Counted from the stretch's first letter, positions 10,801 to 58,362 are shown. The stretch is DNA of 64,000 nucleotides from Bilabrum cf. latius (GCA_965178125.1 OZ237754.1:186001-250000); one strand, 5' to 3'. Translations and numbers: made by a program. The notes: a model not told the origin generated them from the sequence alone.

Positions 10801-13706
10801 GCGGACAGCGAGTTCGGGTTGGTCAAGTCGGTCTCTCCGGCGGCCTCGGACGCATGAGTGTTACCTGACTGCTATGCCCTATTCTAGCCGGTTGCAGATG
10901 GACTCGCGGCGGGTCGAGAGGACGTGAAGAGAGCGCTCTGACCTCCGATGCTCGGTGCCGCAACATGGGGCTTCTGGCCGACCTGCGAGGACACTGCGGC
11001 GAGAACGTCTTCGTTGCCTCGCTTGACCCTCTCGCCAGTCTATTCATGTTGCGGACTCCATGGCGTATACTTGGGCGCCTTTCCTCTAAGTACCTGGCTG
11101 AGCTCCTTGCGGACGATGGCAGTCATGACAGATGGGCGCCAGTACCGAGAGACCAGTTGGTGTGACTCCTCGGGCGATATGCTGAACAGCGTATTGCCTT
11201 CCAGGTCGCACACGGGTGCCCCCAGAGCCTCGAAAAGGTGCGAGACGCTCCGATCCACAAGCTCCGCCACGGCGTCACTCGCAGAGACGAGCGCGTCCGC
11301 GCGCTTGCTGAAGGTAATCGTGAAGGCGCCCTGCTGCCCCGCTCGAGCCAGTCGACCGAGCAACGACGGCTCCCACCTTCGCCGCAGCAGGGCAACAACG
11401 CTGTCCCGGTGCACCCTTCTGGCCTCCAGCTCTAGCTGCATCTTGTACTCGTCCGACTGCTTCAGTGCCGTCATTGCCTTCTTCGTTTTCAGTCGTGCTT
11501 CCTTCTATTTGGCTAGGCGAGCCTTTTCGGCTGCAGCGTGGGACGCATGGTACGAGTCGTGCTGCTCCGATAGATCAGTGACGCGGGCATCTATGCGGCG
11601 GCGCTTTGCCTTGCTCTAGACCTAGTGCAACACGGTCGCGTCGCCTGCACGCGAGCCTTTGGGACGCGAAGCTGCTAGCTCCACGTCTGAGTCGTCAGAA
11701 TCGCTGGGATTGAGGTCGATCATGATGCCCCCGCTTGGAGCCTTGGCCATGCTTGTGGACTTGCCCGCGCCCTAAAGCTACTTGCGCTGATCAGTTGCGC
11801 CCATGCCTGCTGCCGCTCGAGATCGCTTGACGCCTGCCTTCTCTGCAGCATTCGGGCCAATGCCCCTTGCGGCCACTCCATCCTCAGCATCGTCCGAAAG
11901 GTCAATCTCTAGGTTCTGTGCGCCTGTAGCACCCAGCGAGCCCACCTGTTCGGCCCTTTCCATCTGCTGCTACCCAGAAATGTCCGCCAATTTGAAGTCC
12001 AAATCAAAGGCCATGTCTTCTTCCGTAAGATCTCCCTCGCCCATCCCAAGACCGGCCGCAGCCTCCGCCCCTCGGGCCTCGTCCAGAGCATTTGCACCCA
12101 CATGCCCGAACTGCAGCATGCCACCGGCCTGCCCTTTCCCCCCCTGTGTGCCCCTTTCCAACGCGCGGGTCCGAGCAGCCCTCGCCTCCCCGAAAGCCTC
12201 GTTGCCCGCCTGCACCGCCACAGCCCGCTCCTTGGCGGCTGCCACCTGAGTGGCCAATGGCAGTGTCCCCGGCCGGCTCTTCACCCGCACCAGAGAGGAC
12301 GTGGCAGACTGGCCCCTTCTGCCCGAGATGGACGTGAGCTTGGATCGCCGCCTCTTGAAGCGATTCTTGATGGAAGGCATTAAGGAGGAAGACCCGGTGC
12401 CGGGCATGATGCCGGTAGCAGTGCCAGCCTTGCTTGACGATGACGAGGGGCGAGATGCCTACGGCTCACGAGCAAGCGCAAGACGTGCAGCCGCATCGGG
12501 TGGCTACGAAGAGGCGCTCGGGATCTCAATGGGGGAGGAGGAGGAAGGAACGGCTGCTTCTCGGCTGCTGTCGCTGCTGCTACCGGTGCTGCTTGTGCTG
12601 CCGGTGCCCTTGCTAGTGTTGCTGTCGCTGCTGCCCCCGGTGCTGCTCGTGCTGCCTTCAGAGCTGGTTTGCTGCCCGTCTCTACTCAAGTGGCTACGTT
12701 GCTTGCTACCAGCAGCAGTGGGGCTGTTCCGCACACCCTTCGACGAGAATGAGGTTGACGACGAAGATGATGCTCCAGCAGCTCGTCCTGATCTGGCTCC
12801 GCACTCCGTAGGGGCAGAACCTGATCCTTGCTTCCCGTTGTTGTTGACGGAGCGCTCCATGGCTGCATTTAGACTCATGCTGCCCTCCAGCACCTTAGCC
12901 ACCGGCGACCTGGGGCCGAGGACATCCAGTGACCCAGCTCCAGGCGACCGCACTGCCTGCATTGGCTGTCCCCCGCGCGTGCTGCCACTGTAGGAATCGC
13001 ATTCGAGCGGTTTCAGCCTATAGTCCGAGTCGAGCAATCCATCGGCATTGGAATAGACCGTGGCACTGCCGGCGGCACTCATGCTCGCACTCATGCTCGT
13101 TCCCTTGCCCTCGGTCCGACTGGAGGCGCTCGGCGGTGCCGACTGCCGAGCACCCCGCGAGTGCATGCGGCTGGCGGACACTGGCTCGGGATTTTCAGGT
13201 TCAATCTCTTGCTTGCTGTCTGCGGCAGGCATGGATAGCATGGGTCGGACGCTCTCCAGCTCGAGGCGCTGTGCCTTCCGCTCGGAGCGAGCACCTGCTC
13301 GGTGCGCACCAGAGGCTGAGGCAAGGCTCCGAGAGCGCTATGACCGCTCAGTTTCTCTAGTGTTCTGCTGGTTTGTTCCTGCTCCAGGCGTCTTGTAAGC
13401 AGATGCTGACTTGTGGGGCGAACGTGCCGACTTCACAGCCATTGCGGGCTTGCTCACAACTGTTGCAACTGCCTGCTGGGAGTTCCCGCCTGTTCTCGGA
13501 GACGTGTTACGGGCAAACTACTATGCACTCCTCGATACTGGACTGTTCGATATCCCAACGCGTGCGCGCGGAGACACCGCCCGCTTCGATGAGGATCTTG
13601 AGGAGCTTTTTGAGGCAGATTTAGGCGACTTGGCCGCGCTCTTCGGTTGCTTACCGCTCTTTGTAGGCGGTGATGCTGTACCTCCAAAAAGAGTGAGTTG
13701 CTTCAT
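7836..13706 (-). CDS. Large hypothetical protein (~1956 aa if TAG=Gln): disordered N-half, helical C-terminal region
   Basis: ORF-track fragments 13521-13706, 12504-13241, 11970-12407, 11778-11963, 11040-11474, 10122-10826, 9873-10073 and 7836-9716 share one frame and are separated only by ~17 TAGs (e.g. TAG-CAG-CAG at 11970). Single TGA at 7836. N-terminus MKQLTLFG. Confidence 0.75.
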
Positions 13707-17555: not shown

Positions 17556-18188
17556 ATGGTGTCTGAGCAGACTTTGCGCGGATGCGGTGTAACTTCAGCC
17601 GTTTCCTTTTGTAGCGTACATAGAATACTTCAGAGTGATGACGAAGGACAAGGAAATAATGATCCTGATGATGGTGGCCCAAGCGTCCCCATATTCGGTG
17701 TTATTCTTGCAGCATTAGCAGGGCTCATTCTGCTTGCCGTTGCGATGTATTGCTGCTTTCGGAGCCGAACAGAGTGTGCGTGCATGTACAGGAATGGTTG
17801 TTTGAAGGTCATCTGTATCGGGTGCCTGGGTTGCTAGTACTGCTGTCCGTCAAAGTCTCCGCGAAAGCGATTGTAGAAGGGAAACTTGAGCACGGAGGAG
17901 GACGGGGCTGTGACAATGGCTCAAATCATGCAAGTGAGTATCTAGCGCTGTAGTAGTTTACCAACTTGGCAAATCATGACGCTGTTGTGTGTTCTGGCGC
18001 GTTCATCGTGCAATTTACCAAGTCGCACCTACCTCCGCATCTTGCCCGCCCCGCCCCGCCCCGCCTTTTCCCCCCAGGGCTACGGGAGGGAAGCGAGCAG
18101 CGCCAGCATGGCAAATGGGAATGGTACCTCGGCTGATGTGAAGCAAACGCAGAATCCGGTGGATGCTGCTCTGGGTGGAGCCAAATGA
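17556..18188 (+). CDS. Small single-pass membrane protein with a Cys-rich juxtamembrane segment (5' end uncertain)
   Basis: TM segment IFGVILAALAGLILLAVAMY followed by CCFRSRTECAC...CIGCLGC. Frame continues through TAGs at 17835 and 17874 to intron 17934-18077 (GTGAGT...CCCCAG), then an in-frame last exon ending in TGA at 18186-18188. Confidence 0.55.
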
Positions 18189-18630: not shown

Positions 18631-19323
18631 ATGGCGCTAAGAAATAGCCTTGTCCGGTGTGCAAAGCTTTTGTCTAGACAGCATGCTTGTTCCCGTCCAG
18701 TTGCAGGTCTCGCAAGGATCGCTAGAAGCGGCACCGTCCTAGCCAGGGCAACCGCTGGTACCAGAAGATAGTTGCAGTCTAGTGCTGTCTTGTTTTGCGC
18801 AGAGGCTGCGAAGGATGAGACCACAGACGGTGCAGCTAGCAGCTAGACCGAGAGCGATGATCCAGATTTGGATGCCGAAGGTCGCTTGCCCGAGCCCGAG
18901 CTTGCCAGCAGAGCACAGTATTATCGCCTGCTGCTCTGGCATTGGGTGCGCGAAGACAAGTTCATGGAACGAAGAATAAGTCATATTACGGACCCCGCAC
19001 AGCTCGTTTTGGCCGTTTATTTCTTCGCCATCCATGGCCAGAAATGCGAACCACTCGTGAAGGCTGTCGAGGAGCGGTTGATCTCGGCGCTCAATGCCGT
19101 GGGAAAGGGTTCTAGCGAAGGACTAAAGCCAGAGTACATTGGACAGTTGACGTATGCTCTTGGTTTTCATAATTGCGCTTCCGAGGATATGTGGAAGGCC
19201 GTTCGGACGGCTCTTGGCTCCGTGAAGGACTCGTTGCCGTCCCACGTTCGGACCAACGCCAGCCGCGCCCTGATGCGTGCAGGCGACTCCGAGGCGGACG
19301 CACGAGCCCTAGTTGGACTTTGA
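18631..19323 (+). CDS. Hypothetical protein with a probable mitochondrial presequence (~230 aa), helical C-terminal domain
   Basis: Reading through TAG 18769 and 18844 extends ORF 18868-19323 to ATG 18631: MALRNSLVRCAKLLSRQHACSRPVAGLARIARSGTVLARATAGTRR(Q)LQSSAV. This leader is Arg/Ala/Ser-rich and free of acidic residues. Ends in TGA. Confidence 0.65.
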
Positions 19324-19452
19324 TGTGAACAGAATTATATTGAAACAGTGGAATGCGTGGAAAACTGCCCATTCGACGAGCAATCCGTACCTGCAATCCC
19401 CTCCCTCCAGCCGAGACTGCGGGCCAGGCGGTGGCAGGCGCCCCGCCAATCG

Positions 19453-22176
19453 TTATCGGCCCTGCTCTGTGGGCCCCGCCACCCGCATCACGCGTGCCCC
19501 ACCCTTGGTCTTGCCTGCCGCCTCTAGCGCACCTACCGCCCTTGTCAGCATCGCCTTGCCCTCCTCCCCTTGCGACTCAGCGGGCAGCGGCCCCAGCCCC
19601 TGGCCCCTCAGCCAACGGTAGAGCAGGGGCCTAACCAAGAAGGACAAGGACTCGAAGCTGTACAGCCCGTCCCCCTTGCGATATTTCCGCTCCGGATCCG
19701 TCGCCTCGAAGGTGGCCCTGGGTATGACCCGGCCCATTTGTTCCCCGAGGGCGAGGGGGTGGATGAGGTCGCACTTCCACCATAGCACGTAGGTCGGTAC
19801 CTTGACCAGGGGAAGGATCCCGCGGTGGTCCGTGTACGAGGCGTTGTACAGGACGAGGTGCGTCATGGCCCGAGGCATGGCCTCTGTCATCGAGCACGCG
19901 ATCCCGCCGCCCCACGACCACCCCATGACCACGACGGGGGCACCGGTCCCTCTTTCTCCCCTCTCGTCCACGATCCCGCTCTACATCAGCACCTCGTGAG
20001 TGATCTGAATCGGGCCACGGCGGTCAAGGTTTGTCTCGGATCGAGAACACCACCTGCGGCCAGGCGTGCGCCCGAACCCCGGGTGATCCACAGCCACGAC
20101 CCGCCACCCAGCCTCCTGCAGCCCCGCCCACATGTGCCTCTGATCCCTTGACCACGAGTGCGCCCCCCACCCGTGCAGAGTAATGAACACGGGGAGATCG
20201 TCCCGGGACCAGTCTCCCGCATAGTTAACGGCAACTTCCTGCCCCCAGCTCATCCTCACACGCCTCACCTCCCCGTACATGCAAGTGGCACCCTCCTTCG
20301 CGGCCGCCGCTGCCCTGGAGGAAGCCGTGCTGGAGGTGGAGCTCGTGCTGCGGCTGCGAGTCCTCCTGCCCTCGCCCCTCCCAGTCGCACCCACCGAGCT
20401 GCGAGCCGACCTCGCCGCCCGCCCCGTGCTCCGGCCCCTCGCAGCCCCCTTTCTCGATGCTCTTGCGGCAGCCTGCCTCTCCCTGGAGTAGGAAGAGGGC
20501 CGGCGGCGCTGCAGATGCGGAGGGACCGACGTGCTGCGTCGCCCGCGCCCCGACTCGCTCATCCCTGCAACGCGCCTGCTCGCACCAGCGCGCCGAGACA
20601 TGCTTGATCCGGCAGCCTGGGCGGCACCGGTGCTGGCCTCGGCTCCTGGACCCGCTGTCGACACGTCTCCCTCGGCCGAGCTAGACCCCGACTCCATGGA
20701 CCACGTCCCTGTGCCGCTCTCCTGTGTGCCCCCACCGTCATTTCTGCCCTAGCCGCCATCACCCGCCCCCGTGACAGCTCCGCCGGGGAACACATCCCGC
20801 TCTGCCTGCGCCGCTCCGCCCCCACCCCACAGGGACTCGCCGCCGAGAGGGACATATCGGCTTCTGGCCCTCACCGCCCGCTCCATGCCTGTGGACTCCG
20901 AGCTTGAGCCTGCCAGGCAGCGCAGTCGCGAGGGCCATGGGTTCTCAATGGTGTGACGAATAGCCGCCAGCATCATGTCCTCGTCATCCTGCGCCCCAGC
21001 CACACCGGCCGGAGTACCAGCCGATGCTGCCGTGCCCCCAATGATGCGCCTGCCTGCCCAAGGGTACGACTCTGGAGGAGGCCCCATGGGCAGAGAATCG
21101 AAAGACCAAGGGGGGCAGCCTGCTGTGCAGCGAGCTCCCATTGCAAATTCAGGTGCAGGTGCAGGTGCAGGTGCAGGTGCAGGTGCAGGTGCAGGTGCAG
21201 GTGCAGGTGCAGGTGCAGGTGCAGGTGCAGGTGCAGGTGCAGGTGCAGGTGCAGGTGCAGGCACCCGTATCCCACGCCTTGGGCCTTGCACACTGTCCCC
21301 TGACGCACTGCGGGCCCGGGCCCGTGCCCCCCCTGCAGCGGCACGCTCTAGAATGCCGGGGCGCGCGCTGCTGCTTGATGCAGCTGGACCAGCCGATGCA
21401 CCAGGTGCTCCACCAAGCGCCTTGTCACTCACTGCGGCTGGATGCGTCTCCGAGCGCCCGATGGCGCTATCATCGCTTCTGCAGATGGCGTCGAGCACCG
21501 CACCGCTGATGCTCTCGTAGTTCTTGCGCGATTTCTTGGCGCTGTAGGGCCCCGCGCTGAGCTCAATGTACCTGGACTGCTTGCCTATTGCCTTGTGCAC
21601 GGCTTTCGCCTGAGATGCCGGGTGGAACTGGTCTCGTTTCACTTGCAAGACGAGGCAGGGGCATTGGATCGCCCTCAGCTCGTCGGCCTGGAGGGTCCAG
21701 TTGCAGTGGAAGGCGGTGACTGAGCGAACCTAGCCCGGATTCGCGAGTGCAGCCGCCAGAGCCACGCCTCCTCCGTAATCGTATCCGATGAGGTGGGCCC
21801 TGGGTTTGATTGTCTCTTCTGGAATCACATCCATGCTCGCCTCAGCACCGCTGCTGGATGTGTTTGCGCCGACGGCAGATCCTTCGCCACCGAGCCAATC
21901 AATCACGTCAAACAAAGCCTCTACTGGTCCACCAGGCAGCCTGTGATATTCAGTTCTGGATGAGTACTTCTTGCCATCGGACAAGCCAAACCCAGGAAAA
22001 TCTATGGCGCAAACTCGGAAACCAAGTTCTGCGATCCTGGCCATGTAGGCTGACCAATTCAAACCAGATGCAGTTGGGCCGTAACCATGCAAGAGCATAA
22101 CAATTGGCCCATCATGCCGCCCCGATACGTACACATTTACCTTCCCAGCGCTCGACTTGACTTCGCGAGCCTCCAT
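19453..22176 (-). CDS. Protein with two alpha/beta-hydrolase domains joined by a low-complexity linker (~907 aa)
   Basis: Four same-frame ORFs joined by TAGs at 21730, 20749 and 19981. Domain 1: MLLHGYG, IDFPGFGLS, GYDYGG, DQFHP. Domain 2: ITLHGWG, VDHPGFGRT, GWSWGG, DLIHP. Two of the TAGs fall inside the domains. Ends in TAA. Confidence 0.85.
21150..21261. repeat. Perfect hexamer microsatellite (CAGGTG) x ~18, encoding (Ala-Pro)n in the hydrolase linker
   Basis: Directly visible uninterrupted tandem array; reads PAPAPA in the coding (minus) frame. Confidence 0.97.
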
Positions 22177-26600: not shown

Positions 26601-29600
26601 CCAGCTGCCCGAGCTTAGCCCCCCTGCCGAGGTCTATGGGGCGGTCAGGCAGCCAGACTAGCTGTACGTATCCCCTGATCACCCGGAAAAGGACACAGAG
26701 ATTGATAAAGACAGTACCGCCATCGGCCTTCGGTCGACAGACGAAAACCAGCCAGCGAATAGCCTTGAGGCGACGGTGCGGGCCGTGGAGCAAGCTCTGC
26801 AAAAATCGATCATGGCCATGTCGGGTCGGCACGCCGCTCAAGATGACGCGTACGGCGGAGGTACCGATGAGATGCAACGCTCGTCGAGCGGCAGATCCAT
26901 GACGAAATGGGGCGGGCACTAGTTTCACCGCGACGATCGCGAGGGCGAGGGCCACGGCGACGCAGCATCAGGGGGACGAAGTCTGGCTGCTGACGAGCAT
27001 CGAAGGAGGCGCGCAAGAGTTGTTATGGTGCGCCCGGTGGCCACACTGTAGACAAGCATGCTGGCACAGTCACTCATGGAGTCCAGGCAGAACAGCTCAG
27101 GCTCCGGGTCGCGATTGACCAGCACAGGCGAGCCCGGTGATGAAGATCCGTTCCCCGAGCTGCGCGTGGATGTTGTGGCCGCGATGAACACGAGGCCTGC
27201 CTCCAGGGAAGTATCCAGAGCCAATGCCGTTGATTTTGAGGTCGACGCAGCGTCCGATGGCGCACCTGGGCTCCTTGCTCCTGGTTCTGGAGACGGGGTC
27301 TCACCTGCCGGCAGCAGTGTCGACGGGGAGGAGTGGGGAGATGACGATGCAGACCCAGGCGCGACTCCGGCGGCAGGGAGTGGGCTCGTCAGCGCCGGCC
27401 TGCCATTTGAAATCGTGCACAGCGACCCAGCAGCCGATGCCTCTTTGACCACTGCGGGCGAAAGTCCTCAGCACGTGGCCAAAGCAACTTCGGCTGGAAC
27501 GGTCCGGCGGCGCCGAGTCGGCTTGGATGCCGTCCTGCCCCCTCCCGTGCCAGCCATCACCGTCTCGACGCTTCGTAGACGTCGTGATCCGCCGGAGGCC
27601 GAGTGGCCGGGCGGAGGCCGAGCCATGGGCCCGTCAGGTACTCCCAGATCCGGGAGCTTGGCAGCTGCGCTGGGACCGGAGCCTGACCTGTAGCCCGAAC
27701 CGGCGGATGTGCAAGGCGCCACTCGCGAGCAGCAAGTAGCCGATGCGCAGGAGCAGGCATCCGGAAGCGGTTAGCAGGTGCAGCGGGAGAGTGACACGGA
27801 TGGCTGGGGTGAGGACGAGGCAGCCCCGGACGCCAGGGCTCGCGAGGCTTCCCAGGCATCGGGCCATGGATCGGATCAGGGCGGCGTGACACCGAGACGC
27901 GCTGCCCCATCCTCTATGCGGAACGTTGACACGAGCGCACCGGCTGGCCTAAGCCACGTTTGGCCGGGCACCTCAGAATCTCTCACATCGGACCGATCCA
28001 GGGGTTTCACGGAACGACTGGCAGAAGCCCAGGGCCTCCCATTGCCGGCCACATCGGCTCCCTTCATTAAGGTGGAGCTGATGGATGCTCGTGGGCCACG
28101 GGCCAACGCGAGCGCAAGCACTGACTCCAAGGAAACAACCAGCGCGATTGATCCATGGCACTCGAGCCACGAGGTCGGTGGCCACGTCGTGCCCACCGCG
28201 CCTGCGGCATTGACGGGAGAGGTGCGAAAGCTGCACAGCATGGAGGGCGTGGCACTGGTGCCGGTGGAGGGGCAGGGGTGGGGCCAGCTCATGCCCTTTG
28301 ACTCGAGTAGCGCCTTGCTAGATCGGGGCGCTGGGGCGCTGTCGCGAGCTCTGCAGGAGCCGGGCAGTTCGTATTCGAATGTGACCGCTCCCGCGCGGAA
28401 GCGGGCCACCCAGCCTCTGCTACTCGCAGCAGCGCTTAGTGCTGAGGAGGACGAGGAAGAGGATGGGCAGCCTCTGCAAGCTGGCTCGGAGTCTATGTGG
28501 CCCTCACCTGGAGGCATGGATGGTACCGCTTTCGATGACCAAGTCAGCGATGGGGATATCACGTTTGCAGCTGAGTTAGCTGACACCGGGTCTACTTTGG
28601 CCACAAAGGCGAGCCGAACCGCCAGCACCGGCCGCGAGCATTCTGCAGACGACGTGCTCATGCTGACCAGGCAGCTCCTAGCGAGAACGCTAGGGACTAG
28701 CCCTTCATCCAAGCTAGTCCCCTCCCATCGATCGCCGAGTCACCCTGCGACCGTCGGTTCTCGAGGAGAGAGGAGCGAAGTCTCGTTCACCAGTCACACG
28801 GCTTCTACAGCCTCCGATGATGTGCTTCTCATCAGCGATGGGTTCAATCTATTCGACCCTATCGAGGAGCAGATGCAGCGAGCCATGAGCCAGCCCACCC
28901 CAACCCGGCGGCAGATACCCGTCGCAGGCCCCCGTGGGAAGAGCATCACGCCAACGCAGAGGGCGTTGCTGGAGCTATTGAACAACGGTGCGCACGGCAT
29001 TGCGATGTCACGCGCGTACAGTCAGAATGGGGCGACACGCTTGGCGCCCTGGGCGCAGGAGGGCAGGCAAGGCTGGCTCGACGATTTGGAGACCGGCGGG
29101 GGCGCCGGGTCCTCGGCGTCGTCTCAGGATTTTCGGCAGGGGGCGCCGGCGGCAGTTCTCAGTGGGACTGAAGGGCACAATCAAGGGGGGCATGACCAGG
29201 GTCCCGGTGCGACGAAGCGCCGGGACTCTGATGAGCCGAGCCCCCCAGTCCATCCGCCGGCGCCCCGAACTGAAGACCGGGTGCTGGAGCAAAAGCAAAA
29301 GATGCCGCGTGCAGCTGTTTCAGGTGCATCTAGTGCAGATCCTCCGCGACCACCTCCATTTAATCATGGCTGCGACGTTCTTTGCGACAGCCAAGGGTTC
29401 GGCTGCCCTGCCTGCTGCAGCGCCGCTGACCTCCCTAGAGTGCTCACCACAAGAGAGACTCTGCTTGCGGTGGTTGGGAGTTTCTGGCTGCCTCGGGCGC
29501 GCTTTAGCCTGGAACATCTGCGCTACGACGGCTACGACTATTTTGGAAGAGGGTACGGCAGGTCTGGGGAGCACGGGCAGGGTTTCATGGACGACCGGCG

Positions 29601-40289: not shown

Positions 40290-43200
40290 TCACCCGATGT
40301 GGCTGCTGCTTTCATGCGCAATGAGTTCTTCTTGCGCGCGTTGCTTTTCTTCATCGCTCTCGCCGCCATCTTCCGCCTCGCGGTGAAACTGGTGATGGTG
40401 CCTTTGGTGCGAAGCATCCTTGTCCAGCAGCACCGGGCCGAGTTGGGAGATCCCCACAGCTCCAGCTGGCGCTGTCAGTAGGACCGACAGGACGGCCACA
40501 GCAAAGATAACCAGAGCACGGCGCTCGTCCTCCTCCTACACATCCGGGTTTTCGTACGAGCGTTTGCCAATCTGTTTCACCGCGACGCCAGCGTAGGCCG
40601 CCTGCACTGTCGCCTTGGGCATCCAGGCGATGGCGATGAACAGCATCTCGCTGTACGAGAACTCGCCGGTCGCCACGGACAGGAACGCGGTGATGCTTCG
40701 GGCCGCAAGCGCCAGCAGAACAACCACGAGACCCCACCCCAGATAGCTGGGATCCAGCTCCGCGAGATTTACGGAAGCTCCGATCAAGCCGAATAGCAGC
40801 GGCTGGAGAAAGGACCACAGCCACGACACGTTCTCCTCCACAGCCTCGGAACCTACGGATCCTGCGTGTGCGCCCAGCATGTACGACGCCATCGTCCCGG
40901 CGATGATGGAGCCAAGAGGACCGATTCCTTCCACCCCCAGTTCCTTCGCCACGAACATCCCGGTGATCGACATGCTTAGGAGCAATACCGTGCGGCGGGC
41001 AGGGAGTTGTGGGTCGATGTCTTGGTCTGGCACCACGAGCGTTCTTGGCCCGTGCAGCTGCTCATCTTCAATAGTAGACCGCACCACATCGTCGTCACAC
41101 TCATCTTCCGCTCCCACGCACCCTTCACCGGCGAACTCCTCGGGTTCACGGTACGGCAGGCCATCTCGGCCGGTGATCGATCCAATGCTGCTGTGCCGTC
41201 TCATTCTTCCACCCGCAGGGTCCGTAGACTCGGCACCCAGACCGAACCAGCTCGAGGCTCCGAGCGTTTGTGCGTCCATGGAAGCCTGACGCGAGTACTG
41301 CCGGCCCGCCGCCATTTCTGGGTCGAGAGCCGCGCTGCCCTGCGTGTCTCTCTCCGGATCCAACGCTCTGCTACTTTTCCCCGGTCTCCAGCGGTGCAGC
41401 CGAAGCGTGCTAGGATGCACGGACATCAAGTCATCATCGGCCGGGCGGCGCGGTGGAGCGCTTGTCGCGGCTGCTTCCCACAGGGGCATCAGGTCGTTTG
41501 TGCCGAGACCCATGGTAAGGTACTGTGAATCTGCACCGGCGCCGACTTCGGCCCCTGGTTGCCTTGCCTAGACCACGCGCTGCCGCTCGCGCACTGCCTG
41601 CTCATCCAATCGACGGTCGACCTGCGCCTGCTCCTCGCGGTCGCCTTGCCGCTCGGCTCGCCAATCATCGCCACACAGAGTATGCGCATAGTGCATCTAG
41701 CCGCGTTGCTACTGCAATCGACCGGCCGGATCCGGCCACTCCTCAAAGTCGACCGATGCGATGGGGTGCACCTCGCTGGAGTCGTCCTGCATGCCAGTGG
41801 GGGCCCAGCCGTCCTGCAGGCTTTGGCATCGTGCCCTCCTCGTCGCTCGCTGCTTGGTTGGGCTATGGTCTCCTGCACTGGGTGAATTCGGCGCAAGCCC
41901 TGCCTCGCTTTCGTGCTTCTTCGTTTCTGACGCTGGCGGCAATCGAACCGGAGTAGGCGGCTCGTCATTGCGGTGGACAGACTGCTGCTGGACTGTGGCT
42001 CCCCTGCCAGTGGCTGCTGGGCCGCGAGTCTGCTCCTGCATGCTGCTGTCGGGCCCGACGTAGCCACCCTCGAGATTGGTGCTGCTCGTGCTAGAGCTGC
42101 TGCTTGTTCGTGTGCGCTGGCGGCCTTGCTGCTCGGGAGCAGCACCTTGTTCCACCCCTTCAATCGTGGCTGTGATCCCAGATACGCCTGAAATCCCCCT
42201 TCGAATTGCATCCTGCCGCCTCTCCTCGATTGTGCGGCACTCGTCCTGATCCAGCGGTCCAGCTTGCCTCCCCGCAGCCCCAGGGGCTCCTTGCCCTCGA
42301 CCGTCCGCGTCGGGGTCTGGGCAGTGTCGGTGGATGGATGCGGTGACGTCACTATGCACCGCAGTCGCTGCACCAGGCGTCCCGCCAGATGATGGCACCG
42401 GGCTGCCTCTCGCTGCTGCATCCTGGCGGAGCTCGAGCAGCCTTGGCTGGCGGACCCTCAGCTTCCTCGCGAGGTCGACATCGTCCGGCGCTCCCACGTG
42501 CGGCCCTATCGGAGGTGCCGACGACTGCACAATTTTGCGAACCGGGTCGGAGGGGGTCGATATCCGCACCTTCTTTTGCTTGCTGGCGCCTGCTCCGCCA
42601 CCGCGACGTATTCTGTCGGCCGGAGGCGACTCGCCAGTGGGTGGAGGAAGAATTGGCCTCGGCTGCCCAGAGCGATGCCGGGTCTCTGGTGTGGCAGTCC
42701 GGCTGTCCAGCACCGCCTTGTCGGGAGTTTCCCTCGTCGAAGACTTGTGCGCGGGACCGCAGCGGTCTTTGCCCGAAGCATCGCTCTGCATTGCCTGCCG
42801 CCCCTCTCGCATCCCCACGGAACCACACGTGCGAGCATAACTCGGCTTGCGTCTGCGCGCCCCAGCTGCTGCAGCCTCAACTCGAAATCTCGTCGCGTCA
42901 TCCGAGGCAATCTGTGCAGCGCCACTCGTCCCTCTCGATGAATTTCGTCCCGCGCCGCCCCCGGCAAGCTCCCTTCGAAACCTTTCAGCAATTGTAGACC
43001 GACCGTCGCTGTCCTGTCGGCCACGGTATGCATCCCCTACAGCCGTCTATAGCCGGCGGAGAACGTGCGGTCTCGCTGCGACCGGCTCGCCCTTGGTCAG
43101 TGCTCTGTACGTTAGCAGCATTTCGTCCTCATCCCTGTGCTCCTCCTTGCGAGCGTGCGGGCGGTTCCGCTTGTCGACCTCCTGGTGGTGCTGCTGCAGC

Positions 43201-45154
43201 CACGCCGGGGCAGGGAAGGGCTGCAAGGTACCCACGGGCATTGCCCGCATACGGCGTCCTCGGCGGCGAGGCAGCAGCTTCTTTCTGTTGTCAATCTGCA
43301 GTCGCTGCTCGTTTGCTTGCCACGGGGCGTGCTCGTTGGCGTGCTCGGCGTGCTGCCTCGCTCGATTATCCGCCCGTCTCTGCCTCTCTCTCTGTGCCTT
43401 GCGGAGCGCAGTGATCTGTGACGCATTGCTGGTCGCAGATCCCATGCTGTCTTGTCGCGGCCGCGTCACCTGGCTCCCGGCGCCGCGGAGGGACCGTCCC
43501 TGCATCATGCTGTCAGTGCCAGTCCGGGTCCAAGCCGAGGCCACCGGACTCTGCTCGCGCACTCGCTTTGCCATGGACTCTTGGCTCATGGATGCTTCCT
43601 GATGGACGTAATGGTGTGATTGAGGTGTCAACTGGTTGCCGACGCGTCCACCGCTAGATTCCGTGTCGCTCCTACCGTCATCTTCCTCACTCTACTTGTG
43701 CTCGAGTGCGCCGTCGATATGGTCCCTTCCATGGTGTGAACCACCCTAACTGCCGCCGCCACCCAGCTCCCAGCCTTTTGAGTCCTCACCGGCTCCCAGC
43801 AGCCCAGCTATCCTCTTACCGATGGCCCCCAATTTGCCGCTGACACCCTCTGGGACTTCCCCCCGACCAGAGTCGGCCTCAACAACAGGCCCTGGGTCCG
43901 GCTGCCTCCTTGCAACGGTACCCTCGCCCTTTCCCTCATCCTGCGACGGCTCATCCCCACCTTTCTCGCTACCAATACCATCGCGCGCACCCTCCTCCTG
44001 GTCGCAGCTGCGAGCCTCTGCCTCTGCCTCTGGCTGCTGGCTTCCGCCGCTGTCAAGTCTAGCCATCTCGATAGATTTCGAGTCCGATGTCTGCAGCCCG
44101 TAGTATCCGGAGCCACCTCGCTAGTATGGCTTGATGGCATCAGCTGTAGGCAGCAGGAACCACACGGCGTAGCCCTGCAAGCAGCCCCACATCACGCCGA
44201 CCGCCAGCTCCACCGGCCCCTTGCCGACCACCCATCCGATGCTCTCCCCGCTGGAAAACAAAATGCTGGCCACCACGCCTATACCCGCGATTGCAAACAC
44301 GTCATCAAGGCTGCTGGCACCGACAACCAGGGATGGGATCCCTTTGTCTACTCCGTATCCACCCTTTTGTAGCTGAAGCAGACTGGGCACCACAATTGCG
44401 GGGCTCACGGCACCAAGAATAAACCCAAGAAGCAAGCCCCATACTGGCGGTAGGTCCAGAAGATAATATCCCGTTAGGCATGTGGCTCCAGCCTCCACGA
44501 TCATCGGGAGAATGCTAAGCGTGAAGACTACGACTTCTTCGTGCAAGAGAGCTTGCAGATCGATCTCAAGACCGGCAAGCACAAGGATCACAGCGAGGCA
44601 AGTCTCACGTAATACCTCGCCAAGATGCTCATCAATATCAGCTCCAACGTTGACAGCCGCCAGATTCCTCAGAACTCCGCCTCCCTGCGCGATATTGATG
44701 GCAATGCTAGTTGATGGGGTGGTGACTGAAGCAGTCTTGCGTTGATATTTTGGTTGTAGATTCAACCATGGGGTAACGGGGGCCTCAATACAATGAGTTA
44801 AATAGTGGTTAATACATTAAAAGCGTGATGCATTCAACAGAGCGATTTTCAGGCGTACTACTAGTGGACCAGCATAGAAGAATGGACCGCAACTTGAAGA
44901 TGTGTCGCCTGACAGCTCTAACTCACGATCAACATGCCCAGGATAGGCGGAAGGCCTGCTTTCTCGCAAAGCTTGCCAAGTATAGCAGACAAAGCGTAGA
45001 CTGCCTCAACACCAAACCAAGAGCCGCCTGGCCTGAACGTTTCAGCAGAGAAGCCCAAGGCAAGCGCTACAAAGGCAAATAGCAAGATGCGCCAAGCGGC
45101 CGACCGCACCATTCTGGCAACAGGGTCTGGCATGCTCCCTTCAACTAGTACCAT
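40290..45154 (-). CDS. NHA/SLC9B-type (CPA2) cation:proton antiporter with a very large internal hydrophilic insertion (~1540 aa)
   Basis: Exon 45154-44927, intron 44926-44685, exon 44684-40290 with 8 TAGs. Motifs LPPILGMLI|GGGVLRN, LGAVSPAIVVP, GYGVDKGIP, SSLDDV, QPLLFGLIGA, IAWMPKATVQAA and, after TAG 40536, VAVLSVLLTAPAGA. Ends in TGA. Confidence 0.9.
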
Positions 45155-47560: not shown

Positions 47561-47760
47561 CGGTCAAATCAGCCGAAAAGAAAACACTATATTTGCCAAG
47601 GCGCAGAGTCAAGACAATTTTTGCCAAAGTACACAAAGAATCAGGACAAAATGACGAAAATCTGTTCCACAAACGTGATCACTCGTCACATGCTTGCTAG
47701 ACCACTGCGGCTCGGCCGTCGGCATCCGTCATCGATCACGGACACAAGGTCACGCACACG

Positions 47761-49351
47761 ATGCAAGCTCCATGGCCCCTTGGAGATTCTACCACTGTAG
47801 AGTAGCTTGAATAGTAGATTCAAGATATGAACCAGATTGACATCAGAACGCTCGGACCGTAAGAAGAATCCAGCTCTGGAAGTGGCGTGATTTGGGAGCA
47901 AGGGCAGCGGCACTTCACCTGGCTGCCCTACAGCATCTCTTGGGTCCGCACGGGCTCGTGCAGTTCCCATCCATGACCTGCTCGATAAACATAATTCCAT
48001 TGATTGCGACTATCCTTGAAATTGCTTTCATCTTGGGAGGCAGAGCACAGACTTGCTCACGTGAAGTGCACCTCCTGGTCCGATTGATTCTCGCTCCGTA
48101 TGCCTCGCAGGAAGCAACGAACACGACATAATGCGCGCCGTGCAAGGCTAAGGAGACGGCTGGATCTGTTGGTACTCGAGTAGGAGGCTCAAAAGCTGGA
48201 GGGCGAAAACTCTATCATTCGTCGAGTGCTGTTGTACGTAGAGGACATTTATGAAGATGCTCGAAACAGACAGAGCCAGGCGGCAGCAGTGCAAAATCCA
48301 TCGGATCAGCATGTTTTGGCTGATTAGGGTGTGAGCCTAGCACTGTTGTCGCAGGCAGCCTCAGCAGCAAGCGAGACGTTCCGTACTACCGCAACTACAC
48401 CTTCTCTCCAACTGGGCCAGAGTGCCTCGACGCAACCTCCTCAGATGTCCATGATAGATACACCGCAATCGATTGGACCACGACGGATGGCAGGGATCCC
48501 GCCAGTTGCCGTAAGCGGGATATCGAGCTCAGGGTCCGACCGCGCTGGGCCAACCACCACCGAGATGAGTACGCTACCGTTGGATTATTCGTAGTAGCAG
48601 TAGTTGTAGCAGCCATAGGAGTCGATGTAGAGCCAATTTACCGCCGAGTCAAGCTCCAGTAGGACCGAATCCGTGGTTGATGGCCTGGATGAGCGCTCCA
48701 AGCAACTGGCCGAGGGCCTCAACGCCGTGCGAGCCATCGAGCTGCAACTGCAGCAGGCAAAAATACTGGCAAACACGCTGAGACAGGCAGTTCCACTCCC
48801 TTCATCGAATTCTTTCGATCGAGCCGGCACTGCAATCGAGCCCAGCAGTGCACAGAGCCATCAGCTGCAACTGAGGCACGGTGGAATGGATGCCTTTGAG
48901 GCCCACGCGAAGGGGATCGGCGAAAAGCAAGCGCTCGTGGCTCCTGGCCCGCCCCGTGGGGGTGGCCTTAGGAATCCCTTCGGCCCCACAGGATCCGAAT
49001 CGGACGGAAGCTTTGGGGGCCTTGTCGCAGCCGTCGCGGGGGGCATGCCGCCGGGGCCTGGCGGGTACCCGGCCGATTCAGGGGCAGATTCCTTCGCGCA
49101 GCTTCGGGGCGGGGCAGGGTCCAGCACGATATCGTCCTTGGCTGGTGCTAGAGGACGTGTGAAGCGCAGGAGCTATTCCAAGGCGGGATCCTTCGACGAC
49201 GACGGAGCAGACAGCTCCAGGGCGGGATCTGCGGGTGCGATGCCCGGGGCATTCTTCGCAAAAGCGTCTGGAATCGTCAACTCTTCTGCGTCCCAGTCGG
49301 GCTTGGAACAAGGCAGCAGCAAGAACATGCAAGCTGCTGCGAATCACAGCT

Positions 49352-49382
<31 letters not shown>

Positions 49383-52206
49383 TGCAAGCGGGCCGCATGC
49401 GCCTCTTCAGAACAGCGGGCGGCCATCCTCCGTCTCCATGCGCCTGGCCGGACTCTCTAGACTGCAGCCACCCGTGGCACCGTTCGGCCACACGGGCACC
49501 ACCTCCATGCCCGGGGAGTGGAAGGGTGTGGGGGAACATCGGCAAGGTAGCGGAAGGAGAGCAGCGGTGCGCCAGGGTGGGCACGGCCACGGATAGCACG
49601 GTAGCTCCATGCAATCTTCCACACGGACGGGCACCACCGCCCCGGGTGCAGCCAATGGACACGACCGGGATCGGGACACTGGTTCCTCCTCCAACGACCT
49701 GGGGCTTGATCCTTCAAGGAGCGTTGGGAAGGATAGTCGTTCCAGTGGCCAACGCGGGTCCTCAAGCTCTTCAGCGGCGAACAGCAACCGTGATGGCAAC
49801 GCGAGCGGAGGTGGCAGGAGCGGGCCCGACGAGCGGTAGTCAGGCAGCAGCGGCAACAGCAGTGCGCGGCTGGTCAGGGGGGGCAGGGCTGGAGAGAGAC
49901 ATCAACGCAAGGACTCTAGCGGAGCTGACAGCGGCGGGGATCTCGATCCAGTGTCCTAGGCCGGTGGAGCTGCCTTCCTCGTGCCCTCCTCGCACATGCG
50001 AGCCCCCCACCGTTCAGACTCGGGCTCCGACTCGGGCTCGGGACAGTCTGGGGTGGGGGTGGGCCGGCTCGGGGTGCCTTCAGGGACCGCAAGCCACGGC
50101 GCTTCATCCCACATGCAGGCCGTGCTGGGGTACCGGGGAACCCAGCCGGACGACGACAACGAGTACGGGCAGCCCGAAGGACAGGCAGAAGGGCCTGGTC
50201 GATTTCAGCCGGGTGCCACCGCCACCGCCACAGGCAGCGATGTGGGAGGTCCTGGAGGGAGCGGCATGGACGCTCCAGGTGAAGCTGCAGCGAACCAAGT
50301 GGTCGAGGCGGGACAGGCCACCGGTACCGATGGTGCTGAGGCATCTCGAGAGGATGTCATCAGGGTGGCTCAAGAGGCTGCGCATGCCGTGCTCGGAGGA
50401 CAAGTTCCTACGGAGGTGCGCCTGTCTGACGCAGACTCTGCGATGGCAATCCCTCCGAACTGCAACGTGGAGAATGAGATAGCCAGGAACACGATGCTGG
50501 ACTCGCGAGAGAGTTTCATGATCTGCAACGGGCTGGAGAACTAGGTGATCGAGCAAGGCGTGGCCGTGTGCACCGTCATGTTCGTGTCGGATGGGCTGCA
50601 GAAGATGTGCGGCTTCATGCCCGGCGAGCTCGTGGGCTTGCCGTGGACAGTGCTTCTGCATCCCGAGCACCGCTCGGAAGACGCTGCCTCGATGTAGCTC
50701 ACCACGATGCGCCGCGCAGGCATGGCGGAGGCGGTGGTGCAGTGCAGGAAGAGGGATGGCAGCTGCTTCTGGAACCACTGCTTGGTCGCACCCGTGATCC
50801 ACAACAGTCCAGGCAGTCCCGTCATCCGCTGGGCGTTCCTCATGAAAGAGGTCACCCCGGAGTTCGCCAGAGAGCGCAAGCTCCAGCTGGCCCAGGTCGA
50901 GGTGGCAAGCGCGCGGCAGATCAGGCAGGTGCAGCCGGGCTGGGGCAAAGGCTCACGCGCAGGCGCGAGTGCTTCAGGTGCGCACAATCGCCGCGGCAGG
51001 GCAAGGGCAAGCCAGCAGTACGCAGGCTAGCGAGGGTCGCGCCCGTCCAGCATGGCAGGGATGCACAGCGGCAGCGGCAGTGGGTCCGGGAGGGGTACTC
51101 CAGCCCAGTACCAGGAGGGGTTCGGTGGTAGACCCTTCCATGGCAGCGGTATGCCTCCCGTGTCGGCTCTTGGAATGAGCATGGCCAGGACTGGGGGCAG
51201 CAGCGGGCACAGCAGCGTTCACATGCGGCAGGTCAGGACCTCCGGTTCCAGCGGGGCCAACGCTGCCTTCGGGGGCCTGCGAGACCCTGAGACCGGGATG
51301 GCTCCGCTGAGCAACGGCAACAGCAGCAGCAGCAGCGGTGGTAGTGGTGGACACTTCGGGCTGTCTGGTCTCGGGCCCGTCGAGTGGCTTCCTCCTCGCA
51401 CTGGCGACGGCAAGCCCCGCGGCATCATCGGGCGCGAGCATGACAGCAGGGACGCGTATTCAGTCGCTTCTTCGATGTTCTCGAGAGAGGCTGCGGCATT
51501 CGGGGGCAGGTCGCGGAGCCTGAGGGCAGCTGGCATGGATGGGTTGGCGCTGCCGCCTAGAGGGGGAGAGGGGGGGACTGGCAGCAGCGTAGATTTAGGC
51601 AGCGCCGAAGTGCAATCGTACCAAGGCTCGCTGTAGCCAGGCAATGCCTCGGCATCGACGACCCCCCGTGCTGGAATCATGCATGCTGGTAGCGATGCCG
51701 CTAGAGGGGCTCAGCTACTGCCTTCTGGGTTTGAGAGAGGTAGCATCGGTGCAGATGGCAGCAGTGAGTTGGGGGTGAAGCATGGATTGGACAGCCTGCA
51801 AGGCGGACCAGCTCCGAGCCGTGCTCGAGGCAAGGCGGGTCGTGGCGCTCCAGTCGGTGCCAACCAGAACGGGGCCACCCAAATGATGAGCGGGGAAGAG
51901 CTCGATCACCAGCGCTCTGGCTCCGCAGAGTCGTTCCCGCGGATTGGTTCTCTGGCGAGGCAGAAGCACAATGGTCCCGCGGCTGCCGGATCGCAGATCT
52001 CCATGCCATCGACGTCGCGCCCCTTTGATTTGGCGGCGGTAGCACTGCATACACATCAGCACTCTGCAAGCTCGAAGGGGGATTCCCAGCGAGTGCCAGT
52101 GCAACAAGCTCTTGGGGCCGGACACTCGGCTGACGCTCAGGAGAAGGCTGCGATGGCCGGTGATGACCAGGAGCCCTCTGCAAAGCGGAGACGAGTGTAG
52201 AATTGA
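47761..52206 (+). CDS. bZIP transcription factor with a downstream PAS (LOV-like, Cys-less) domain, ~1397 aa
   Basis: Exon 47761-47858, intron 47859-48110 (GTAAGA...TCGCAG), exon 48111-52206; ~20 TAGs. Basic region/zipper KQRTRHNARRARLRRRLDLLVLE(Q)EAQKLEGENSII. PAS region 50490-50860 (SFMIC..VMFVSDGLQKMCGF..ELVG..RKRDGSCFWN..VAPV..MKEVT). Poly-Q tracts; C-terminal KRRR. Ends in TGA. First exon is inferred. Confidence 0.75.
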
Positions 52207-52444
52207 CTTTTATGAATTGCTAGCTGCAGAACTGTTGTTGAATATACACGAAAAGTTGACTGGAGCACCTGAAGAAAGAAGCAATTTGGCAGCACGTGCA
52301 GACTGTGACCAGGGCACGCCGGACACAGTCACCAGCTATCGTGTTCACAGCATCCGCCCCCACCCCTACGTCTCTGTTGCATGCCATCTTCGACTAGAGG
52401 GCACCCCGCCGCTCGTCCGGGCCTGGGTACTCGGCACCTGCAGC

Positions 52445-58258: not shown

Positions 58259-58362
58259 TGCACGCCAATGCAGATTGCCACATTCCCCAGTCGCTCCTTG
58301 GACGCCTCATTCCTGAAGTCGCTACCGCACCCACGGCCGCCTACTCCAAGCCAACGACAAGC

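What the first reader, a model, noticed from the sequence alone, without database searches (positions are those of the whole stretch)
48592..49380. Poly-glutamine tracts mix TAG with CAG/CAA, identifying the amino acid as Gln
Seen: 48592-48636 reads TAG TAG CAG TAG TTG TAG CAG CCA TAG GAG TCG ATG TAG AGC CAA, i.e. QQQQLQQPQESMQSQ if TAG=Q. At 49351 a TAG heads a run of nine CAGs. Similar contexts occur at 47800-47823 (GAG TAG CTT GAA TAG TAG ATT CAA, EQLEQQIQ), 11970 (TAG CAG CAG), 27772 (TAG CAG GTG CAG) and 41709 (CAG TAG CAA). Inference: synonymous interchange within homopolymer tracts points to Gln rather than Leu, Glu, Tyr, Trp or Pyl.
Basis: partly seen in the sequence, partly recalled or inferred. 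Interest (0 to 1): 0.85.

Follow-up and report, generated by a model that had tools for sequence, protein, structure and literature searches.

The report
TAG read as glutamine codon
In this GC-rich eukaryotic DNA the usual stop codon TAG sits inside many genes and is most likely read as glutamine, a rare but already known kind of genetic-code change.

Summary
The sequence is as described. Six TAGs lie among 13 codons at 48592-48630, and TAG plus nine CAG lies at 49351-49380. All are in frame in one bZIP-like/PAS gene.

The poly-Q argument alone is weak. CAG/CAA near TAG is not enriched (16 observed, 13.1 expected, p=0.22). Only TAG-TAG clustering is significant (p=0.001).

The conclusion holds on other evidence:
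- 77 in-frame TAGs lie in 16,998 codons of 17 gene models that end in TGA or TAA.
- A transcript-shaped contig keeps every TAG unchanged. It splices exon 1, which carries three TAGs, in frame to exon 2.
- In a syntenic metagenome relative, TAG pairs with CAA or CAG in 5 columns. One TAG is shared and is Gln in a third relative.
- Gln is the best meaning by likelihood, posterior 0.99.
- Sequence context also ranks Gln first.

TAA appears to remain a stop. This would match the UAG=Gln, UAA=stop code reported for Iotanema and some ciliates. The tRNA, eRF1 and the lineage could not be examined.

The parts
47707..52246 (+). Extent of the transcript-shaped contigs of run X5 over the gene that holds the finding. 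There is a break at the CAG repeat, 49345-49388.
   Evidence: table 8: records 2 and 3 have 0 other letters and 0 gaps. An adapter-like loose end lies at 47707.
47761..47858 (+). Exon 1 coding part. It runs from the first ATG of the contig and holds TAG codons at 47803, 47812 and 47815.
   Evidence: The 98 nt from the ATG plus base 48111 keep the frame of the long ORF.
47859..48110 (+). Intron of 252 nt with GT..AG ends.
   Evidence: table 5: a joint in one X5 contig, side 152.
48111..52206 (+). Exon 2 coding part of a bZIP-like/PAS protein. It holds 17 in-frame TAGs and ends in TGA at 52204-52206.
48112..48231 (+). Basic region and zipper-like stretch, with one TAG at 48181.
   Evidence: bZIP_1, E=0.013, 16 bits, below the Pfam cut-off of 27.6. 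This is a weak match.
48592..48630 (+). Cluster of six TAG codons (48592, 48595, 48601, 48607, 48616, 48628) within 13 codons. Two of those 13 are CAG, and a CAA follows at 48634.
49351..49380 (+). TAG followed by nine CAG codons.
50569..50856 (+). PAS domain (P0001 residues 824-919), with a TAG at 50695.
   Evidence: PAS_9, E=3.1e-7..
19981..19983 (-). TAG in the second alpha/beta-hydrolase domain. The relative L002 also has TAG here, and relative P0003 has Gln.
   Evidence: 9 of 12 flanking residues are identical.
17874..17876 (+). TAG facing CAA (Gln) in relative L002.
   Evidence: 10 of 12 flanking residues are identical.
17922..17933 (+). Two CAA codons (17922, 17931), each facing a TAG in relative L002. 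The second is the last codon of the exon in both species.
19144..19146 (+). CAG facing a TAG in relative L002.
   Evidence: 10 of 12 flanking residues are identical.
18144..18146 (+). CAA facing a TAG in relative L002, in a poorly conserved context.
   Evidence: 4 of 12 flanking residues are identical.
17835..17837 (+). TAG facing GCA (Ala) in relative L002. This column counts against a simple TAG-Gln match.
   Evidence: 11 of 12 flanking residues are identical.
21730..21732 (-). TAG facing GCC (Ala) in relative L002, at a column that varies across the family.
19453..19455 (-). TAA that ends the hydrolase gene. It aligns with the TGA stop of the relative.
11970..11972 (-). TAG followed by CAG CAG in the 1956-codon ORF.
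27772..27774 (+). TAG CAG GTG CAG in the 2939-codon ORF.
41709..41711 (-). CAG TAG CAA in the Na+/H+ exchanger gene.

Best explanation
The window is nuclear DNA of a GC-rich microbial eukaryote with few introns. In it, UAG has been reassigned from stop to glutamine, while UGA and very probably UAA still terminate.

TAG makes up about a tenth of Gln codons: 77 TAG against 529 CAG and 174 CAA. TAG is commonest in fast-evolving, disordered, Q-rich proteins such as the bZIP-like/PAS protein at 47761-52206. There, C-to-T changes in CAG would be silent under this code.

What is shown:
- In-frame TAGs are present.
- They are retained in a spliced contig.
- TAG exchanges with CAA/CAG across species.

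What is inferred and not tested:
- Decoding by a dedicated tRNA-Gln with anticodon CUA.
- An eRF1 that no longer recognises UAG efficiently.
- That run X5 is RNA-derived.
For: 1. TAG is sense.
- Reading TAG through lengthens the longest ORFs from 1538, 1239 and 751 codons to 2943, 1974, 1724, 1508 and 1372. Reading TAA through changes little.
- In the gene models, in-frame TAG numbers 77, against 116 and 98 in the two other frames. TAA is 0 against 42 and 44, and TGA is 0 against 287 and 291.
- Pfam domains lie on both sides of TAGs: the Na_H_Exchanger halves, two hydrolase domains, and SH3 domains.

2. The TAGs are not removed or edited.
- X5 contigs cover 47707-47858 joined to 48111-49344, and 49389-52246, with 0 other letters.

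3. The code is shared with a relative.
- Locus L002 is syntenic with 17556-22176 at 60-66% protein identity. It has 8 in-frame TAGs in four genes, one at the same codon as here.

4. The meaning is Gln.
- The partner is Gln in 6 of 13 columns, and in 5 of 7 well-aligned ones.
- Gln has posterior 0.9965 over all columns and 0.9917 over the well-aligned ones.
- Real Gln faces Gln in 16 of 33 counts. As a partner, Gln is rare for Lys (1/53), Arg (5/156), His (3/43) and Leu (3/145).

5. Context agrees.
- The log-likelihood ratio for Gln is +2.8; the next best, Thr, is -3.3.
- Held-out real Gln sites give a median of 2.6.

6. TAA acts as a stop.
- Our TAA at 19453 aligns with the relative's TGA stop. 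The relative's TAA aligns with our TGA stop.
- No gene model is interrupted by TAA, although CAA is used 174 times.
Against: - Two well-aligned columns pair TAG with Ala (17835; 21730). One pairs it with His, in relative P0156.
- The orthologue sample is small: 13 columns, nearly all from one 6.6-kb contig.
- Zero in-frame TAA or TGA, and no TAG terminators, follow partly from how the ORFs were delimited.
- The last TAG of the bZIP-like/PAS gene lies two codons before its TGA, so it could be the real stop.
- A few of the 77 TAGs may lie upstream of the true start. An example is 62062 in the sugar-transporter ORF, whose first ATG is at 61918.
- The relative has one in-frame TAA, at L002 position 849, facing our AAA. 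A strict UAA=stop code does not explain this.
- Run X5 is not on record as RNA.
- No tRNA gene is in the window or in L002.
Confidence: 0.88

Rival explanations
1. Both UAG and UAA encode glutamine and only UGA terminates, as in NCBI table 6. On this view TAA is simply very rare as a sense codon in this GC-rich genome.
For: - The relative L002 has an in-frame TAA inside its hydrolase gene, with conserved sequence on both sides.
- Two of the three TAA 'stops' seen are followed by TGA within two or three codons: ours at 2504 and the relative's in gene B.
- Three papers cite Amoeboaphelidium protococcarum as reading both TAG and TAA as Gln (passages).
Against: - There are 0 in-frame TAAs in 16,998 codons. 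About 25 would be expected if TAA:TAG followed CAA:CAG (174:529).
- Reading TAA as sense merges no verified gene.
- After the TAA at 19453 the next TGA lies 347 codons on, running antisense through the convergent neighbouring gene, which ends 130 nt away at 19323. The relative ends at the same position with TGA.
Confidence: 0.1
2. TAG is sense but encodes another residue, such as Glu, Arg, Ala, Ser, Leu, Tyr or Lys, or has more than one meaning.
For: Ala twice and His, Ser, Gly, Arg and Thr once each face TAG in orthologue columns. The context classifier names real Gln sites correctly only 65 times in 100.
Against: - In the likelihood over 13 columns, Arg scores -6.3, Glu -7.4, Ser -7.8, Lys -8.5 and Ala -8.8 natural-log units below Gln. 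Leu, Tyr and Trp score lower still.
- Real Gln codons show the same degree of mismatch, facing Gln in 48% of counts.
- Context ranks Gln first by 6 units.
Confidence: 0.04
3. The code is standard. TAGs are tolerated because near-cognate tRNA-Gln reads through stops that sit in Gln-rich contexts, as described for yeast.
For: PMC13192750 (abstract read) reports that QXQ flanks and high Gln-codon content promote Gln insertion at premature stops in yeast. The most striking TAGs here lie in Q-rich stretches.
Against: - 54 of 77 TAGs have no CAG, CAA or TAG within two codons.
- TAGs occur in tandem, and six occur within 13 codons. This would need near-complete read-through.
- One TAG lies in a hydrolase domain and is conserved between species.
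- In-frame TAG frequency is 66-79% of the frequency in the other frames.
Confidence: 0.03
4. The TAGs are not translated at all. They would lie in introns, pseudogenes or assembly errors, or be edited to CAG in the RNA.
For: One TAG first counted as coding, at 17943, proved to be intronic. X5 is not on record as RNA.
Against: - The X5 contig removes a GT..AG intron yet keeps all TAGs, with 0 other letters.
- Contigs of four runs agree with the window.
- ORFs of 1368 to 2939 codons are free of TGA and TAA.
- The frame and the TAG position are conserved in the relative.
Confidence: 0.02

Closest known systems
Iotanema spirale nuclear code (UAG=Gln; UAA and UGA stop). Panek et al. 2017, PMC5304391, passages read.
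   Same: UAG alone appears reassigned to Gln and UAA is kept as a terminator. UAG is a minor Gln codon in both: about 8% there, 9.9% here (77 of 780).
   Different: Iotanema is an anaerobic fornicate in which UAA is the predominant stop. Here TGA ends 16 of 18 gene models, the DNA is 61% GC, and the genes look like those of an aerobic free-living or parasitic eukaryote. The tRNA and eRF1 were not examined here.
UAG=Gln with UAA as stop in Protocruzia tuzeti and two phyllopharyngean ciliate lineages. McGowan et al. 2024, PMC11687900, discussion passages read.
   Same: The same codon and the same amino acid, with the meanings of UAA and UAG uncoupled.
   Different: Nothing in this window was tested for ciliate affinity, and no ciliate relative turned up in any search. 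From my own recollection, not from any call, ciliate macronuclear genomes are AT-rich; this window is 61% GC.
UAR=Gln (NCBI table 6): many ciliates, Hexamita, Streblomastix, ulvophycean green algae, and the aphelid Amoeboaphelidium protococcarum. Passages in PMC5304391, PMC11687900, PMC6299283 and PMC6394959.
   Same: A stop codon reassigned to Gln, found here in a non-ciliate eukaryote.
   Different: Table 6 also reads UAA as Gln, with UGA the only stop. Here TAA is never in frame and ends two genes. Whether the window's organism belongs to one of these lineages could not be tested. The primary aphelid papers are not held.
Q-rich motifs built from reassigned stop codons in ciliates. PMC10942620, title and abstract from the search listing only.
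   Same: Poly-Q and Q-rich tracts encoded by a mixture of standard Gln codons and reassigned stop codons.
   Different: That work concerns ciliates that use UAA and UAG. Here only TAG is used, and the link with Q tracts is weak (p=0.22).
Gln-codon-driven read-through of stop codons in yeast. PMC13192750, abstract read.
   Same: Gln is inserted at UAG/UAA when the stop is flanked by Gln codons. This is a plausible stepping stone for the reassignment.
   Different: That is leaky read-through of premature stops under a standard code. Here TAG is used throughout genes and mostly outside Q contexts.
Code 15 (TAG=Gln) in crAss-like and other phages. PMC9523058, listing and abstract only.
   Same: TAG is read as Gln while TAA and TGA stay stops.
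   Different: That is a phage system used for late genes, with phage-borne suppressor tRNA. This window holds spliced eukaryotic genes.

Membership tests
UAG=Gln nuclear code with UAA/UGA stops (Iotanema type) | In-frame UAG in expressed, conserved protein-coding genes | tested here: met
   77 TAGs in 17 gene models. TAGs lie between or inside Pfam domains. They are retained in a spliced contig. One is conserved in a relative.
UAG=Gln nuclear code with UAA/UGA stops (Iotanema type) | UAG aligns with Gln in orthologues | tested here: met
   Gln in 6 of 13 columns and in 5 of 7 well-aligned ones. Posterior 0.99. The sample is small.
UAG=Gln nuclear code with UAA/UGA stops (Iotanema type) | UAA is not used as a sense codon and functions as a terminator | tested here: met
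   0 in-frame TAAs in 16,998 codons, against 174 CAA. Two genes end in TAA, one aligned to the relative's TGA stop. Caveat: ORFs were delimited by TAA, and the relative has one in-frame TAA.
UAG=Gln nuclear code with UAA/UGA stops (Iotanema type) | UAG is not used as a terminator | tested here: inconclusive
   Three orthologue pairs end together at TGA or TAA. Elsewhere TAG stops cannot be seen by construction. The TAG at 52198 lies two codons before the TGA.
UAG=Gln nuclear code with UAA/UGA stops (Iotanema type) | A tRNA-Gln gene with anticodon CUA | not testable with these tools
   No whole genome is held. There are 0 tRNA genes in the window and in L002 and 0 Rfam matches.
UAG=Gln nuclear code with UAA/UGA stops (Iotanema type) | eRF1 altered in its stop-codon recognition motifs | not testable with these tools
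   The only gene with eRF1 domains in the window (552-2357) is Pelota/Dom34, not eRF1.
UAR=Gln code (NCBI table 6) | UAA is used in frame as a Gln codon, with UGA the sole terminator | tested here: not met
   No in-frame TAA. The TAA at 19453 must terminate, because the next TGA is 347 codons on, through the convergent gene.
Pyrrolysine decoding of UAG | UAG aligns with Lys/Pyl positions of particular enzymes, and pylTSBCD genes are present | tested here: not met
   No Lys among the 13 partners of TAG. TAGs are spread over unrelated genes at 0.45% of codons. The pyl genes themselves could not be searched because no genome is held.
Ambiguous, context-dependent stop/sense codes (Condylostoma or Blastocrithidia type) | The same codon is sense inside genes and stop near the mRNA 3' end | tested here: inconclusive
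   Only one transcript end is seen, at 52246, 40 nt after the TGA. The TAG two codons before that TGA cannot be assigned.

The most novel reading that the evidence does not exclude
The window and its metagenomic relatives may represent a eukaryotic clade, outside ciliates and metamonads, in which UAG=Gln has not been described and UAA and UAG have been uncoupled. The relative's conserved in-frame TAA would then point to a lineage caught between codes, with UAA partly readable. That would make it a natural system for studying how UAR reassignment proceeds one codon at a time in a GC-rich genome, where the usual AT-pressure explanation does not apply.
Probability: 0.3. Interest if true: 0.75.

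Novelty: new member of a known kind. Interest (0 to 1): 0.5.

Why it matters
Nuclear stop-codon reassignments are rare. Cases where UAG and UAA differ in meaning are rarer still. By the papers read here they comprise Iotanema, one rhizarian, Scotinosphaera and a few ciliates (PMC5304391, PMC11687900).

There are three reasons this matters:
- Annotation. Gene prediction under the standard code breaks genes apart in this organism and its relatives. The relatives' database proteins are fragments of 146 to 379 residues from genes of 900 to 1950 codons.
- Theory. A GC-rich genome with TAG=Gln does not fit the idea that such changes follow AT pressure.
- Abundance. The relatives occur in several public metagenomes, so the code may belong to an environmentally common clade.

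If the organism is one already reported to read stops as Gln, the added value shrinks to the evidence that TAA is not used as sense.

Tried and rejected
- Whole genome: none is held, so no search for tRNA(CUA) or eRF1 was possible.
- Sequencing runs: no RNA holder is listed. X5, X7 and X8 are only guessed to be RNA. I infer that X5 is RNA-derived from its intron-less joint and from contig ends at gene borders.
- Protein searches:
  - P0002 against shorter proteins gave 0 hits.
  - P0001 gave one fragment, P0156.
  - The 1956-codon ORF gave one fragment, P0157. It covers only the TAG-free stretch, and its end aligns ambiguously with the TAG at 11042.
- First metagenome scan, with the single hydrolase protein: 31 pattern matches, none a relative. 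The second scan, with alignment A1, gave L001-L003.
- Scans of genome contigs and viral contigs with alignment A2: no relatives.
- Conserved-column checks in deep families were uninformative.
  - The TAG in the SH3 domain (31789) faces Ser or Leu in the PDB alignments shown.
  - The hydrolase TAGs face Ala, Tyr or His in distant homologues.
  - The TAG in the zipper-like stretch lies in a weak bZIP match, and I did not see column-level alignments for it.
- Lineage: two ESM Atlas look-ups gave only broad eukaryotic clusters. Pelota is closest to the mammalian PDB entry. None of this places the organism.
- Earlier findings of this scan: three look-ups, nothing returned.
- The TAG at 17943 was first read as coding and facing Trp in the relative. 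I dropped it after the donor site at 17934 showed it to be intronic.
- The first context-classifier control was circular. I replaced it with held-out sampling.
- The primary aphelid papers (Protist 2013, Curr Biol 2022) are not held. What they say about TAA is known to me only through citing passages.

Full report
**What is in the sequence**

The window is 58-67% GC. It contains no tRNA gene or Rfam family.
- 48592-48636 reads TAG TAG CAG TAG TTG TAG CAG CCA TAG GAG TCG ATG TAG AGC CAA.
- 49351 is TAG followed by nine CAG.
- 47800-47823, 27772, and the minus-strand sites at 11972-11970 and 41711-41709 are as described.

**TAG is a sense codon**

Under the standard stops the longest open frames are 1538, 1239 and 751 codons. 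Reading TAG through gives 2943, 1974, 1724, 1508 and 1372. Reading TAA through changes almost nothing (ORF lists).

The long frames carry eukaryotic domains on either side of their TAGs:
- PAS;
- SH3;
- the two halves of a Na+/H+ exchanger;
- two alpha/beta-hydrolase domains;
- an ion channel;
- a sugar transporter.

In 17 gene models (18 coding segments, 16,998 codons) I count 77 in-frame TAGs. The two other frames hold 116 and 98. TAA is 0 in frame against 42 and 44, and TGA is 0 against 287 and 291.

Two caveats apply. The zeros follow partly from delimiting ORFs by TAA and TGA. A few TAGs may lie upstream of true starts; one example is 62062.

**The gene that holds the finding**

Contigs of the coded run X5 cover three stretches with no differing letters and no gaps:
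- 47707-47858;
- 48111-49344, reached by skipping 252 nt with GT..AG ends;
- 49389-52246.

The break between the last two falls in the CAG repeat.

X5 is not on record as RNA. I infer that it is RNA-derived for three reasons:
- An intron is missing from the contig.
- The contigs end 54 nt before the first ATG (47761) and 40 nt after the TGA (52204-52206).
- The neighbouring contig has the size of the neighbouring gene plus short UTRs.

Exon 1 read from the ATG at 47761 continues in frame into exon 2. If X5 is RNA-derived, none of the 20 TAGs of this gene is spliced out or edited.

The protein has a weak bZIP-like basic region and zipper (E=0.013, below the Pfam cut-off). It also has a PAS domain and long low-complexity stretches, including the Q-rich tracts.

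**How much the poly-Q argument shows on its own**

It shows little.
- 9 of 136 codons next to TAG are CAG/CAA (6.6%), against a 4.2% background. CGG and CTG reach 6.2%.
- In 5000 within-gene permutations, TAGs with CAG/CAA within two codons number 16 against 13.07 expected (p=0.22).
- TAG-TAG clustering is 12 against 2.54 expected (p=0.001). Either kind is 23 against 15.17 (p=0.024).

A yeast preprint (PMC13192750, abstract read) reports that stops flanked by Gln codons are read through with Gln under the standard code. Q-tract TAGs alone therefore cannot separate reassignment from leaky termination. Here, however, 54 of 77 TAGs have no Gln-type codon within two codons.

A classifier built on the six flanking residues ranks Gln first: +2.8, then Thr -3.3, Arg -3.5 and Glu -5.5. 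With held-out sampling, real Gln sites give a median of 2.6 and are called correctly 65 times in 100. The context therefore fits Gln but is not decisive.

**Orthologue evidence**

A search of 1.84 billion representative proteins with the hydrolase gene found relatives at 61-75% identity (P0003, P0004, P0005). They come from metagenome and run assemblies.

A metagenome scan with an alignment returned L002, 6630 nt and 55.5% GC. It also returned L001, which is identical to part of L002. L002 is syntenic with window 17556-22176 and holds three shared genes at 60-66% protein identity. L002 itself has in-frame TAGs, so the code is shared.

Codon by codon:

| This window | Relative | Context |
|---|---|---|
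| TAG 19983-19981 | TAG in L002; Gln in P0003 | well aligned |
| CAG 19144 | TAG | well aligned |
| TAG 17874 | CAA | well aligned |
| CAA 17922 | TAG | well aligned |
| CAA 17931 | TAG | well aligned |
| CAA 18144 | TAG | poor |
| TAG 17835 | GCA (Ala) | well aligned |
| TAG 21732-21730 | GCC (Ala) | well aligned |
| TAG (hydrolase codon 476) | TCT (Ser) | poor |
| TAG (gene B codon 47) | GGG (Gly) | poor |
| AGA (Arg) | TAG (gene B codon 30) | poor |
| one TAG | gap | not counted |

Two Logan-derived fragments add two more columns. P0156 gives His at P0001 residue 1179 (77% identity). P0157 gives an ambiguous Thr.

In total the partner is Gln in 6 of 13 columns and in 5 of 7 well-aligned ones. 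In the same alignments real Gln faces Gln in 16 of 33 counts. Gln is a rare partner for Lys (1/53), Arg (5/156), His (3/43) and Leu (3/145).

A BLOSUM62 likelihood with a flat prior gives Gln 0.9965 over all 13 columns and 0.9917 over the 7 well-aligned ones. The next best are Arg (-6.3) and Glu (-7.4 or -5.7).

**TAA and TGA**

Gene models end in TGA 16 times and in TAA twice.
- The TAA at 19453 aligns with the relative's TGA stop.
- The relative's TAA in gene B aligns with our TGA.
- Past the TAA at 19453 the frame stays open for 347 codons. It runs antisense through the convergent gene, which ends 130 nt away. TAA must terminate there.
- CAA is used 174 times. If TAA were an equivalent Gln codon, about 25 in-frame TAAs would be expected. 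None is seen.

Against this, L002 has an in-frame TAA at position 849 facing our AAA, with conserved sequence on both sides. Three data sources hold a protein that ends near there. I cannot explain this. It leaves about a 10% chance that UAA is partly readable in this clade.

Whether TAG can also terminate near 3' ends is open. The TAG at 52198 lies two codons before the TGA.

**Mechanism**

The most likely mechanism is a tRNA-Gln whose anticodon changed from CUG to CUA, together with an eRF1 that has lost efficient UAG recognition. This is inferred from how known reassignments work. Neither component could be examined, because no genome is held. The eRF1-domain gene at 552-2357 is Pelota.

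**Comparison with what is known**

By the passages read, UAG=Gln with UAA kept as a stop is known from Iotanema spirale, Protocruzia tuzeti and two phyllopharyngean ciliate lineages (PMC5304391; PMC11687900). UAG is about 8% of Gln codons in Iotanema and 9.9% here.

UAR=Gln is known from ciliates, Hexamita, Streblomastix, ulvophytes and the aphelid Amoeboaphelidium protococcarum.

The lineage of this window could not be placed. I therefore cannot say whether it is one of these or a new one. I searched the held literature six times and found no report of a GC-rich non-ciliate eukaryote with UAG-only Gln. The two primary aphelid papers are not held.

**Verdict**

The sequence observation is correct. 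The inference of Gln is supported, mainly by cross-species codon comparison rather than by the poly-Q tracts. The code is a known kind, seen here in what is probably a further lineage.

Noticed in passing
L002:849-851 (relative), facing window 21526-21528 region (-): An in-frame TAA lies inside the relative's two-domain hydrolase gene and faces an AAA (Lys) codon here. Conserved coding sequence continues in the same frame after it. Database proteins from three sources end at or near this point.
   Followed up: partly
window 552-2357 (+): A Pelota/Dom34 gene with eRF1 domains 1-3. Its best PDB match is mammalian Pelota (E=2.4e-73). It has a roughly 200-residue low-complexity C-terminal tail. 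The match starts at residue 34, so a first exon probably lies upstream. It contains no TAG.
   Followed up: partly
window 58360-59830 (+): A two-exon cathepsin L-like gene with an I29 propeptide and a papain-like domain in another frame. The usual active-site motif reads CGSDYAFS, so the catalytic Cys appears to be replaced. It has no in-frame TAG and ends in TGA.
   Followed up: no
window 40290-44765 (-): A Na+/H+ exchanger whose two transmembrane halves are separated by roughly 1000 residues of low-complexity sequence that holds six of its eight TAGs.
   Followed up: no
window 17934-18077 (+) and the matching place in L002: A small membrane-protein gene has an intron at the same position in both species: 144 nt here, with donor GTGAGT. 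In the relative the last codon of exon 1 is TAG, directly before the donor GTAAGC.
   Followed up: yes
window 21100-21270 (-) and L002 1100-1290: An (Ala-Pro)n repeat linker lies between the two hydrolase domains. It is kept as a repeat in the relative.
   Followed up: no
window 23947-32766 (+): A 2939-codon ORF with SH3 domains near the C-terminus. I read its N-terminal region by eye as a degenerate protein-kinase-like region, but Pfam gave no kinase match at E<=0.001. It holds 11 TAGs.
   Followed up: no
window gene ends: Both TAA-type ends that have a close follower are backed by a TGA within two or three codons: ours at 2504 and the relative's in gene B. 2 of the 14 TGA ends listed also have a second in-frame stop within three codons. 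The numbers are too small to interpret.
   Followed up: partly
orthologue columns, window 17922, 17931, 18144, 17874: Where TAG faces a standard Gln codon across species, the partner is CAA in 4 of 5 cases. Yet CAA is only a quarter of CAG+CAA in this window.
   Followed up: no
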